Shown here: positions 42,343-45,300 of the stretch, one piece after another | How the letters are laid out: the number at the start of each line of letters is the position of its first letter | Position numbering within the stretch: the stretch's first letter is position 1 | Assembly (NCBI RefSeq): GCF_057098645.1 | Contig: NZ_CM169472.1 | Reading direction: 5' to 3' (one strand) | DNA: 64,000 nt | Made by a program: the position numbers

Positions 42343-45300
42343 TTAATTCCACTGTGAAAACGAATATTTATTTTGCGTTCCCGTTTGTTTTATTTTTGTT
42401 AACATTTAATATAATTATTATTAACCTCGTGGACGCGTTAATGGCTAACTCATAATGGGTATTCAATAAGCTGTATTCTGTGATTGGTGTCACATTTTTG
42501 TTTCGGGTGAATAGAGGACGTTTTTCCATTAATTTTGGTTATTAATCAGTTTGTTATGTTCTTTTGTGGGTAAAAAAATAGCATCTGACTTTCAATATTG
42601 GTGATCTATAAAACAATATTGAAAATTTCTTTTTGCTACGCCATGTTTTCAATATTGGTGAGGAACTTAACAATATTGAAAGTTGGATTTATCTGCGTGT
42701 GACATTTTCAATATTGGTGATTAAAGTTTTATTTCCAAATTAAATGGCGTGATATCTGTAATTAACACCACCGATATGAACGACGTTTCCTTCATGATTT
42801 CTGGAGATGCAATGAAGATTATTACTTGCTATAAGTGCGTGCCTGATGAACAGGATATTGCGGTCAATAATGCTGATGGTTCATTAGACTTCAGCAAAGC
42901 CGATGCCAAAATAAGCCAATACGATCTCAACGCTATTGAAGCGGCTTGCCAGCTAAAGCAACAGGCAGCAGAGGCGCAGGTGACAGCCTTAAGTGTGGGC
43001 GGTAAAGCCCTGACCAACGCCAAAGGGCGTAAAGATGTGCTATCGCGCGGCCCGGATGAACTGATTGTGGTGATTGATGACCAATTCGAGCAGGCACTGC
43101 CGCAACAAACGGCGAGCGCACTGGCTGCAGCCGCCCAGAAAGCAGGCTTTGATCTGATCCTCTGTGGCGATGGTTCTTCCGACCTTTATGCCCAGCAGGT
43201 TGGTCTGCTGGTGGGCGAAATCCTCAATATTCCGGCAGTTAACGGCGTCAGCAAAATTATCTCCCTGACGGCAGATACCCTCACCGTTGAGCGCGAACTG
43301 GAAGATGAAACCGAAACCTTAAGCATTCCGCTGCCTGCGGTTGTTGCTGTTTCCACTGATATCAACTCCCCACAAATTCCTTCGATGAAAGCCATTCTCG
43401 GCGCAGCGAAAAAGCCAGTCCAGGTATGGTCGGCGGCGGATATCGGTTTTAACGCAGAGGCAGCCTGGTCAGAACAACAGGTTGCCGCGCCGAAACAGCG
43501 CGAGCGTCAGCGCATCGTGATTGAAGGTGACGGCGAAGAACAGATCGCCGCATTTGCTGAAAATCTTCGCAAAGTCATTTAATTACAGGGGATGCTATGA
43601 ACACGTTTTCTCAAGTCTGGGTATTCAGCGATACCCCTTCTCGTCTGCCGGAACTGATGAACGGTGCGCAGGCTTTAGCTAATCAAATCAACACCTTTGT
43701 CCTCAATGATGCCGACGGCGCAAAGGCAATCCAGCTCGGCGCTAATCATGTCTGGAAATTAAACGGCAAACCGGACGATCGGATGATCGAAGATTACGCC
43801 AGTGTCATGGCTGACACTATTCGCCAGCACGGCACAGACGGCCTGGTGCTGTTGCCAAACACCCGTCGCGGCAAATTACTGGCGGCAAAACTGGGTTATC
43901 GCCTTAAAGCGGCGGTGTCTAACGATGCCAGCACCGTCAGCGTACAGGACGGTAAAGCAACAGTGAAACACATGGTTTACGGCGGCCTGGCGATTGGCGA
44001 AGAACGCATTGCCACGCCGTATGCGGTACTGACCATCAGCAGTGGCACGTTCGATGCGGCTCAGCCAGACGCGTCACGCACTGGCGAAACGCATACCGTG
44101 GAGTGGCAGGCTCCGGCTGTGGCGATTACCCGCACGGCGACCCAGGCGCGCCAGAGCAACAGCGTCGATCTCGACAAAGCCCGTCTGGTGGTCAGCGTCG
44201 GTCGCGGCATTGGCAGCAAAGAGAACATTGCGCTGGCAGAGCAGCTTTGCAAGGCGATAGGTGCGGAGTTGGCCTGTTCTCGTCCGGTGGCGGAAAACGA
44301 AAAATGGATGGAGCACGAACGCTATGTCGGTATCTCCAACCTGATGCTGAAACCTGAACTGTACCTAGCGGTGGGGATCTCCGGGCAGATCCAGCACATG
44401 GTTGGTGCTAATGCATCGCAAACCATTTTCGCCATCAACAAAGATAAAAATGCGCCGATCTTCCAGTACGCGGATTACGGCATTGTTGGCGACGCCGTGA
44501 AGATCCTTCCGGCGCTGACCGCAGCTTTAGCGCGTTGATCCACTCTGGCAGGGCTGCATTACGGTCCTGCCGCTGACAGGGAGCTCTTATGTCCGAAGAT
44601 ATCTTTGACGCCATCATCGTCGGTGCAGGGCTTGCCGGTTCGGTTGCCGCACTGGTGCTCGCCCGCGAAGGTGCGCAAGTGTTAGTTATCGAGCGTGGCA
44701 ATTCCGCAGGTGCCAAGAACGTCACCGGCGGGCGTCTCTATGCCCACAGTCTGGAACACATTATTCCAGGTTTCGCCGAATCCGCCCCCGTAGAACGCCT
44801 GATCACCCATGAAAAACTCGCGTTTATGACGGAAAAGTCAGCGATGACTATGGACTACTGCAACGGTGACGAAACCTCGCCATCCCAGCGTTCTTACTCC
44901 GTTTTGCGCAGTAAATTTGATGCCTGGTTGATGGAGCAGGCCGAAGAAGCGGGCGCGCAGTTAATTACCGGGATCCGCGTCGATAACCTCGTACAGCGCG
45001 ATGGCAAAGTTGTCGGCGTAGAAGCCGATGGCGATGTGATTGAAGCGAAAACGGTGATCCTTGCTGACGGGGTGAACTCCATCCTTGCCGAAAAGCTGGG
45101 GATGGCAAAACGCGTTAAACCGACGGATGTGGCGGTTGGCGTGAAGGAACTGATCGAGTTACCGAAGTCGGTTATCGAAGACCGTTTTCAGTTGCAGGGT
45201 AATCAGGGGGCGGCTTGCCTGTTTGCGGGATCACCCACCGATGGCCTGATGGGCGGCGGCTTCCTTTATACCAATGAAAACACCCTGTCGCTGGGGCTGG

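What the first reader, a model, noticed from the sequence alone, without database searches (positions are those of the whole stretch)
42590..42720. Five copies of TTTCAATATTG in alternating orientation in the caiT-fixA control region
The 11-mer occurs forward at 42590, 42647 and 42706 and as its reverse complement at 42614 and 42671. This gives two inverted-repeat pairs with 13-bp spacers, which fits the published architecture of CaiF sites (11-bp half-sites 13 bp apart), plus an extra unpaired half-site at 42706. The three forward copies are actually 15 nt long (TTTCAATATTGGTGA).
Basis: partly seen in the sequence, partly recalled or inferred. Interest (0 to 1): 0.3.

Follow-up and report, generated by a model that had tools for sequence, protein, structure and literature searches.

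The report
CaiF boxes in cai-fix promoter region
The five repeats are the binding boxes of the carnitine regulator CaiF between the E. coli caiT and fixA genes: four form the two published sites, and the fifth, unpaired one sits inside the fixA core promoter and is the best-conserved box across enteric bacteria.

Summary
TTTCAATATTG occurs exactly five times in 64 kb, all at the stated positions, against 0.06 expected. The three forward copies share 15-16 nt.

The window is E. coli. The region lies between caiT (ATG 42339, minus strand) and fixA (ATG 42812). The two inverted pairs, 42590-42624 and 42647-42681, match the published CaiF sites F1 and F2 (TTTCAATATTG-N13-CAATATTGAAA). This part is already known.

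- **GTGA extension.** In F1 and F2 the tail starts a CRP-like motif, GGTGA-N6-(A/T)AACA, centred in each spacer. These fall at -126.5 and -69.5 of the inferred fix start.
- **Position of the unpaired copy.** It fills the 17-bp spacer between a predicted -35 (GTGACA) and -10 (TAAAGT) of the fixA promoter, at -28 to -14.
- **Conservation.** In 55 Enterobacterales cai-fix loci the layout is (inverted pair) x 0-3 followed by one terminal unpaired box. That terminal 14-mer is exact in 49 of 54 loci. Its distance from the preceding box is 59 bp in 39 of 45 loci.

CaiF's only characterised relative, GrlA, acts by binding a promoter spacer, so I propose the third box is a promoter-proximal CaiF contact. 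CaiF binding there is untested. This is a known system with one modest, testable extension.

The parts
42590..42604 (+). F1 left box (L-type): 11-mer TTTCAATATTG plus GTGA tail
   Evidence: Exact match. Identity 0.956 for the 11-mer and 0.94 for the tail across the 25 five-copy loci.
42600..42615 (.). CRP-like motif GGTGATCTATAAAACA in the F1 spacer (inferred CRP site 3, centre 42607.5 = -126.5 of fix)
   Evidence: 7 of 10 matches to TGTGA-N6-TCACA. The position fits the Buchet 1998 coordinates, which I recall from memory.
42614..42624 (-). F1 right box (R-type), CAATATTGAAA on the + strand
   Evidence: Exact match. Identity 0.993. The L-to-R offset is 24 nt in 85 of 85 pairs.
42647..42661 (+). 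F2 left box (L-type) plus GTGA tail
   Evidence: Exact match. Identity 0.967 and 0.97.
42657..42672 (.). CRP-like motif GGTGAGGAACTTAACA in the F2 spacer (inferred CRP site 2, centre 42664.5 = -69.5 of fix)
   Evidence: 8 of 10 matches. The position fits the recalled Buchet 1998 coordinates.
42671..42681 (-). F2 right box (R-type)
   Evidence: Exact match. Identity 0.964.
42699..42704 (+). Predicted fixA promoter -35 hexamer GTGACA
   Evidence: Promoter scan gives GTGACA-17-TAAAGT. Identity 0.98 in the 25 loci.
42706..42720 (+). Third, unpaired L-type box TTTCAATATTGGTGA inside the promoter spacer (-28 to -14). The palindromic core centre at 42712.5 is close to the spacer midpoint at 42713.
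   Evidence: Exact match. Identity 0.993 and 0.99. The terminal 14-mer is exact in 49 of 54 Enterobacterales loci. The 36-mer 42699-42734 is identical in 5320 of 5389 E. coli genomes.
42722..42727 (+). Predicted fixA promoter -10 hexamer TAAAGT (TAnnGT across the Escherichia/Citrobacter/Salmonella clade)
42734..42734 (+). Inferred fix transcription start (K-12 coordinate 42325)
   Evidence: This is the only position that satisfies all the recalled published constraints at once: CRP1 at -41.5 of cai, starts 289 bp apart, CRP sites at -69.5 and -126.5 of fix. It is an inference, not a measurement made here.
42479..42494 (.). CRP site 1 TGTGATTGGTGTCACA (10 of 10), at -41.5 of the inferred cai start at 42445. 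The cai -10 CATTAT is at 42457-42452 on the minus strand.
   Evidence: Conserved in the A2 consensus.
34708..35103 (+). caiF, the regulator that recognises the boxes
   Evidence: ORF. Pfam CaiF_GrlA PF07180, 28.5 bits against a cutoff of 25. The only PDB relative is GrlA 4KT5_C.

Best explanation
The five copies form the CaiF operator array of the divergent caiTABCDE/fixABCX control region. Two sites are the published F1 (42590-42624) and F2 (42647-42681). Each is a left box TTCAATATTGGTGA and a right box TTCAATATTG in inverted orientation, 13 bp apart, and the spacer holds a weak CRP-like motif. CaiF protomers would therefore flank CRP at -127 and -70 of the fix start. The fifth copy is a third, L-type CaiF box with no partner. 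It lies in the 17-bp spacer between the -35 and -10 hexamers of the fixA promoter. I propose it is a functional, selected, promoter-proximal CaiF contact. One CaiF protomer bound in the spacer, probably needing the co-activator crotonobetainyl-CoA, RNA polymerase or the upstream CaiF/CRP complexes, would help open the fix promoter, as its relative GrlA is thought to do at LEE1. It may also anchor the larger complex needed for cai transcription. What is shown: the sequences, positions, conservation and family relationship. What is inferred: the transcription starts, CRP occupancy of the spacers, and CaiF binding and action at the third box.
For: - The motif identity and N13 spacing match the published F1/F2 consensus.
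- K-12 is identical at all five copies.
- A promoter scan places GTGACA-17-TAAAGT at 42699-42727, around the third box.
- CRP-like motifs lie exactly at -69.5 and -126.5 of position 42734, and 42734 is 289 bp from a cai start set by the perfect CRP1 site.
- In the 25 loci with five copies, the third 11-mer is 99.3% conserved, against 50-69% for inter-site DNA.
- In 55 Enterobacterales loci the layout is (L-R)n + L with n = 0 to 3.
- The terminal 14-mer is exact in 49 of 54 loci, against 57 of 91 upstream L boxes. The last interval is 59 bp in 39 of 45 loci.
- The GTGA tail is as conserved in terminal boxes, which have no CRP partner, as in upstream boxes.
- In about 520 kb of loci the 14-mer occurs only in this intergenic region and in one orientation.
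- The 36-mer from -35 to the start is identical in 5320 of 5389 E. coli genomes, while a control 36-mer is identical in 1.
- Edwardsiella, which has a single box, encodes caiF.
- CaiF belongs to the CaiF_GrlA family. GrlA is reported to act by binding the -35/-10 spacer of LEE1 (PMC10877973).
- Deletions reaching into fix sequence impair cai expression (PMC2131755).
Against: - Every paper I could read reports only two CaiF sites. If the 1999 footprinting probe covered the third box, CaiF alone did not visibly protect it.
- The primary papers could not be read. The transcription starts and the CRP2/CRP3 positions rest on my memory of an abstract plus their exact fit to the sequence.
- The fix spacer is an optimal 17 bp, not the over-long 18-20 bp typical of GrlA or MerR targets.
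- The LEE1 spacer shows no clear sequence similarity to the CaiF box.
- Outside the Escherichia/Citrobacter/Salmonella clade the -35 and -10 hexamers are not conserved at the same register.
- Conservation alone cannot separate 'CaiF site' from 'sequence needed by the promoter itself'.
Confidence: 0.72

Rival explanations
1. The third box is conserved because it is part of the fixA core promoter itself, for spacer or -35-proximal sequence or DNA shape, or because it binds another factor such as H-NS. It is not bound by CaiF, and CaiF acts only from F1 and F2.
For: Only two CaiF sites are reported. The box lies between the predicted -35 and -10 hexamers. H-NS represses carnitine metabolism, and the box is AT-rich.
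Against: Promoter function does not explain a 14-of-14 identity with the left boxes of footprinted CaiF sites. That identity holds across families in which the surrounding -35 and -10 sequences differ. The 14-mer occurs nowhere else in the loci.
Confidence: 0.15
2. The third box is mainly an architectural or negative element. It could be occupied by effector-free CaiF to keep fix off (MerR-style dual control). Or it could serve as an anchor that, with F1 and F2, builds a CaiF-CRP nucleoprotein complex needed for the distant cai promoter rather than for fix.
For: The interval to the preceding box is fixed at 59 bp despite divergent intervening sequence. Fix-proximal sequence is needed for cai expression. 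The box sits where a bound protein could occlude RNA polymerase.
Against: CaiF is known only as an activator. Species with a single box and no F1/F2 keep the box, so it cannot act only as a partner for upstream sites.
Confidence: 0.1
3. The third box is a decaying relic of a tandem duplication of the roughly 58-bp F-site unit, with no function.
For: The three forward copies are spaced 57 and 59 bp apart. The number of units varies among genera.
Against: It is the most conserved copy: 49 of 54 exact across three or more families, and 99% in the 25 five-copy loci. It is invariant in 98.7% of E. coli genomes. No recognisable right partner remains in any lineage. Tandem Repeats Finder sees no unit-wide similarity.
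Confidence: 0.03

Closest known systems
CaiF sites F1 and F2 of the E. coli K-12 cai-fix regulatory region (Buchet et al. 1999, as quoted in PMC12083890 and PMC3680233)
   Same: The sequence TTTCAATATTG-N13-CAATATTGAAA is identical, there are two sites, the intergenic location is the same, and caiF is encoded nearby. Four of the five copies are these sites.
   Different: The fifth copy has no inverted partner. It is not mentioned in any paper I could read, and it lies inside the fix core promoter rather than upstream of it.
GrlA at the LEE1 P1 promoter of EHEC/EPEC (Islam et al. 2011, as quoted in PMC10877973)
   Same: GrlA is the only characterised homologue of CaiF (Pfam CaiF_GrlA; PDB 4KT5_C). 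It is reported to activate by binding the spacer between -35 and -10, which is the position of the third CaiF box.
   Different: The LEE1 spacer is 18 bp and suboptimal, while the fix spacer is 17 bp. There is no clear sequence similarity between the two spacers. No upstream inverted-repeat sites or CRP involvement are reported for GrlA.
MerR-type spacer operators
   Same: A palindromic operator core is centred in the promoter spacer. The regulator needs a small-molecule co-activator.
   Different: CaiF is not a MerR-family protein, the spacer is not over-long, and the full box is asymmetric.
CRP class I / class II activation at divergent promoters
   Same: A perfect CRP site lies at -41.5 of cai, and CRP-like motifs lie at -69.5 and -126.5 of fix.
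   Different: The upstream CRP-like motifs are weak (7-8 of 10) and are nested inside another activator's inverted repeat.

Membership tests
CaiF operator (F-site) | 11-bp half-site TTTCAATATTG | tested here: met
   Five exact copies. The consensus is quoted in PMC12083890.
CaiF operator (F-site) | Two half-sites in inverted orientation separated by 13 bp | tested here: met
   Met for 42590/42614 and 42647/42671. The offset is invariant in 85 of 85 pairs across species. It is not met for the copy at 42706: the best candidate partner matches 4-6 of 11.
CaiF operator (F-site) | Location in the caiT-fixA intergenic region, with caiF encoded at the locus | tested here: met
CaiF operator (F-site) | Physical binding by CaiF (gel shift or DNase I footprint) | not testable with these tools
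   Binding is published for F1 and F2 in K-12, whose sequence is identical here. No data exist for the third box.
CRP binding site | Match to TGTGA-N6-TCACA | tested here: inconclusive
   CRP1 matches 10 of 10. The F2 spacer matches 8 of 10 and the F1 spacer 7 of 10. Motifs at 7 of 10 or better occur about 3 per kb by chance. The positions fit the recalled footprints at -69.5 and -126.5.
GrlA/MerR-like spacer-binding activation | Operator lies between the -35 and -10 hexamers | tested here: met
   The predicted promoter GTGACA-17-TAAAGT encloses the box. This is consistent with the inferred start at 42734.
GrlA/MerR-like spacer-binding activation | Suboptimal, over-long spacer (18-20 bp) that the activator compensates for | tested here: not met
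   The spacer is 17 bp in E. coli. The register is unclear in other families.
GrlA/MerR-like spacer-binding activation | Regulator homologous to a known spacer-binding activator | tested here: met
   CaiF matches Pfam CaiF_GrlA above the cutoff. It matches GrlA 4KT5_C at E = 1e-3. It is not a MerR-family protein.

The most novel reading that the evidence does not exclude
The promoter-embedded 14-mer TTCAATATTGGTGA is the ancestral and primary CaiF operator. CaiF, like GrlA, activates from within the -35/-10 spacer, which would make spacer binding a family-wide mechanism of CaiF/GrlA regulators. The footprinted upstream sites F1 and F2 would then be accessory CaiF-CRP modules whose number has changed between 0 and 3 among enterobacterial genera.
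Probability: 0.35. Interest if true: 0.45.

Novelty: already known. Interest (0 to 1): 0.28.

Why it matters
The cai-fix control region is used as an L-carnitine biosensor and in strain engineering, and current models include only F1 and F2. If the promoter-embedded box is a third CaiF contact, minimal sensor promoters could be redesigned around it. In some genera a single box seems to suffice. It would also link CaiF mechanistically to the virulence regulator GrlA, giving a tractable K-12 model for how this small family activates transcription from inside a promoter. Otherwise the finding is a correct re-identification of textbook-level regulatory sites.

Tried and rejected
- **Primary papers.** Buchet 1998 and 1999 are not held. 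Searches for fixA/caiT promoter data and for CaiF genome-wide binding data found nothing usable.
- **Right-hand partner for the third box.** The best matches are 4-6 of 11 in AT-rich DNA. The conserved downstream block GT(T/A)T(T/A)ATTT differs from the half-site.
- **Unit-wide tandem repeat.** Tandem Repeats Finder finds none. Only the boxes repeat.
- **RNA explanation.** There is no Rfam match and no unusual fold in the fixA leader, z = 0.12. The boxes lie between the two inferred starts, so they should not be transcribed.
- **Sequence similarity to the GrlA target spacer of LEE1.** None is convincing.
- **CaiF box near caiF (autoregulation).** There are only chance-level one-mismatch hits, for example at 34806 inside the ORF.
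- **GTGA tail explained by CRP alone.** Rejected, because the tail is equally conserved in terminal boxes that lack a CRP right half.
- **CaiF structure.** Single-sequence AlphaFold2 gave pLDDT 54, which is unusable, so no fold search was run.
- **Loci in Python.** Genome-contig loci were not exposed to Python, so I worked from alignment A2 instead.

Full report
**1. Observation**

The 11-mer TTTCAATATTG occurs exactly five times in the 64-kb window: at 42590(+), 42614(-), 42647(+), 42671(-) and 42706(+). Shuffles expect 0.06 copies, and none of 100 reached five. The 15-mer TTTCAATATTGGTGA is exact at the three forward positions, and copies 1 and 3 share 16 nt. Each inverted pair has 13 bp between its arms.

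One point was not in the finding. The core CAATATTG is itself an 8-bp palindrome. 'Orientation' is therefore defined only by the flanks: TTT on the outside, and GTGA (forward copies) or YTA (reverse copies) on the inside.

**2. Context**

The window is E. coli. The intergenic sequence matches 5391 of 5426 complete genomes. caiT starts at 42339 on the minus strand and fixA at 42812. K-12 MG1655 has the same annotation and the same five copies, and the 14 or so differences between the two strains all fall outside the boxes.

caiF lies at 34708-35103. It matches Pfam CaiF_GrlA above the curated cutoff. Its only relative with a solved structure is GrlA, 4KT5_C.

**3. What is already published**

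Secondary sources quoting Buchet et al. [quoted passage not shown] They give the sequence 5'-TTTCAATATTG-N13-CAATATTGAAA-3' (PMC12083890; PMC3680233). The only two such pairs in the region are 42590-42624 and 42647-42681, so these are F1 and F2. I could not obtain the primary papers.

**4. Reconstructing the promoters**

From my memory of the Buchet 1998 abstract:
- the cai and fix starts are 289 bp apart;
- a perfect CRP site lies at -41.5 of cai;
- weaker CRP sites lie at -69.5 and -126.5 of fix.

A scan for TGTGA-N6-TCACA finds three relevant motifs.

| Motif | Coordinates | Match | Centre |
|---|---|---|---|
| TGTGATTGGTGTCACA (CRP1) | 42479-42494 | 10 of 10 | 42486.5 |
| GGTGATCTATAAAACA | 42600-42615 | 7 of 10 | 42607.5 |
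| GGTGAGGAACTTAACA | 42657-42672 | 8 of 10 | 42664.5 |

Placing the cai start at 42445 puts CRP1 at -41.5. A CATTAT -10 hexamer then sits at exactly -12 to -7. Adding 289 bp gives a fix start at 42734. The two weaker motifs then fall at exactly -126.5 and -69.5.

Independently, the promoter scan reports GTGACA-17-TAAAGT at 42699-42727, which predicts the same start. All constraints are satisfied by one solution, so I treat 42734 (K-12 42325) as the fix start. It remains an inference.

Two consequences follow:
- The GTGA tail of the forward copies in F1 and F2 is the left half of a CRP-like motif nested in each 13-bp spacer. CaiF half-sites would therefore flank CRP.
- The unpaired copy spans -28 to -14 of the fix promoter and fills the spacer. 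Its palindromic core is centred at 42712.5, next to the spacer midpoint at 42713.

**5. Comparative evidence**

A scan for CaiT relatives in one genome per species returned 80 loci. I aligned and analysed the 1.2 kb upstream of caiT. Non-Enterobacterales (Shewanella, Campylobacter, Ferrimonas and others) lack the box.

In all 55 Enterobacterales sequences the layout is (L-R)n followed by one terminal L box. L is TTCAATATTGGTGA and R is the inverted TTCAATATTG.

| n (inverted pairs) | Taxa |
|---|---|
| 0 | Edwardsiella, Hafnia, Serratia sp. H1w, Leminorella, Limnobaculum (Budvicia has two direct L boxes) |
| 1 | Pluralibacter, Yokenella, Atlantibacter, Trabulsiella and two unnamed Enterobacteriaceae |
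| 2 | Escherichia, Citrobacter, Salmonella, Phytobacter, Pseudocitrobacter, Intestinirhabdus; Providencia has degenerate right boxes |
| 3 | Proteus |

Only Entomohabitans has a degenerate terminal box.

Key numbers from these loci:
- The terminal 14-mer is exact in 49 of 54 loci, against 57 of 91 upstream L boxes.
- The interval from the preceding L box is 59 bp in 39 of 45 loci.
- The L-to-R offset is 24 nt in 85 of 85 pairs.
- In the 25 five-copy loci the third 11-mer is 99.3% conserved, its GTGA tail 99% and the -35 hexamer 98%. Inter-site DNA is 50-69% conserved.
- The GTGA tail is as conserved in terminal boxes, which have no CRP right half, as in upstream boxes. The tail is therefore probably part of what CaiF recognises, not only a CRP half-site.
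- Across about 520 kb of fetched loci the exact 14-mer occurs only in this intergenic region and only in one orientation.

Within E. coli, the 36-mer from -35 to the start is identical in 5320 of 5389 genomes. A control 36-mer between CRP1 and F1 is identical in one genome. The most divergent E. coli lineage keeps all five boxes. Edwardsiella, which has a single box, encodes caiF (PMC2764856).

**6. Mechanism**

Shown:
- F1 and F2 have the published CaiF-site sequence.
- The third box is under strong purifying selection.
- It lies within the predicted core promoter.

Inferred: the third box is a promoter-proximal CaiF contact. The best analogy is CaiF's homologue GrlA. GrlA is reported to activate LEE1 by binding directly to the spacer between -10 and -35 (PMC10877973 quoting Islam 2011; homology noted in PMC9979310).

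A review also notes that deletions reaching into fix sequence impair cai expression (PMC2131755). That fits a role for the fix-proximal box in the whole divergent complex.

Evidence against:
- Only two CaiF sites are reported in the literature.
- The fix spacer is an optimal 17 bp.
- The LEE1 spacer (TTTAATGATAATGTATTT, read from an LEE-positive strain) shows no clear similarity to the CaiF box.
- Outside the Escherichia/Citrobacter/Salmonella clade the -35 and -10 register is uncertain. An alternative conserved -10-like block, T(T/A)T(T/A)AT, lies 5 bp further downstream. In either register the box still falls inside the core promoter.
- A lone box may need the co-activator crotonobetainyl-CoA, RNA polymerase or the upstream complexes to be occupied. 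That would explain why it was missed in vitro.

**7. Rivals**

- The box is conserved for promoter function or for another protein such as H-NS. This does not explain the 14-of-14 identity with footprinted CaiF boxes across families.
- The box is an architectural or negative element.
- The box is a dead duplication relic. Conservation excludes this.

Negative checks: no tandem-repeat unit beyond the boxes, no Rfam family, no unusual RNA fold in the fixA leader, and no usable single-sequence CaiF model.

**8. Verdict**

The system is already known. The added value is threefold:
- the CRP-like motifs nested in F1 and F2;
- the position of the unpaired box inside the fixA core promoter;
- its status as the most conserved and only universal CaiF box, with 0 to 3 upstream inverted-repeat modules in different genera.

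This yields a specific, cheap experimental test. Interest is modest.

Noticed in passing
window 42726-42734 and 42750-42759: Two further blocks downstream of the terminal box are conserved across all Enterobacterales loci. One is GT(T/A)T(T/A)ATTT, a possible alternative -10. The other is TGnTAnnTnT, at about +17 to +26 of the inferred fix start. Their function is unknown.
   Followed up: partly
L083 (E. coli SFE8, NZ_CP051219.1), locus about 2746-3507: Homology to the control region stops just before F1. It is followed by IS26 and Tn3-type resistance DNA, so this strain has lost the CaiF boxes and fixA.
   Followed up: partly
L022, L043, L051 (Leminorella, Limnobaculum), upstream of fixA: These loci have a single L box plus a perfect R-type copy, CAATATTGAAA. 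The R copy lies about 236 bp downstream of the L box and 38 bp before the fixA ATG.
   Followed up: no
L048 (Budvicia aquatica), upstream of caiT: A 27-bp tandem duplication gives two direct L boxes, each followed by GGTATT.
   Followed up: no
window 42497-42532: The stretch between CRP site 1 and F1 is hypervariable. This 36-mer is at least 99% identical in only 1 of 5426 E. coli genomes, whereas 42699-42734 is identical in 5320.
   Followed up: partly
L068, L073-L075 (Shewanella), caiT-fixA intergenic region: These regions have no CaiF box but carry different inverted repeats, for example AATTCTAATA-N4-TATTAGAATT. This suggests another regulator controls the same operon pair there.
   Followed up: no
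E. coli genome collection: Three of the 5403 matches to the cai-fix intergenic region are on plasmids.
   Followed up: no
window 34806-34816: A one-mismatch copy, TTTCGATATTG, lies inside the caiF coding sequence. Its frequency is consistent with chance.
   Followed up: partly
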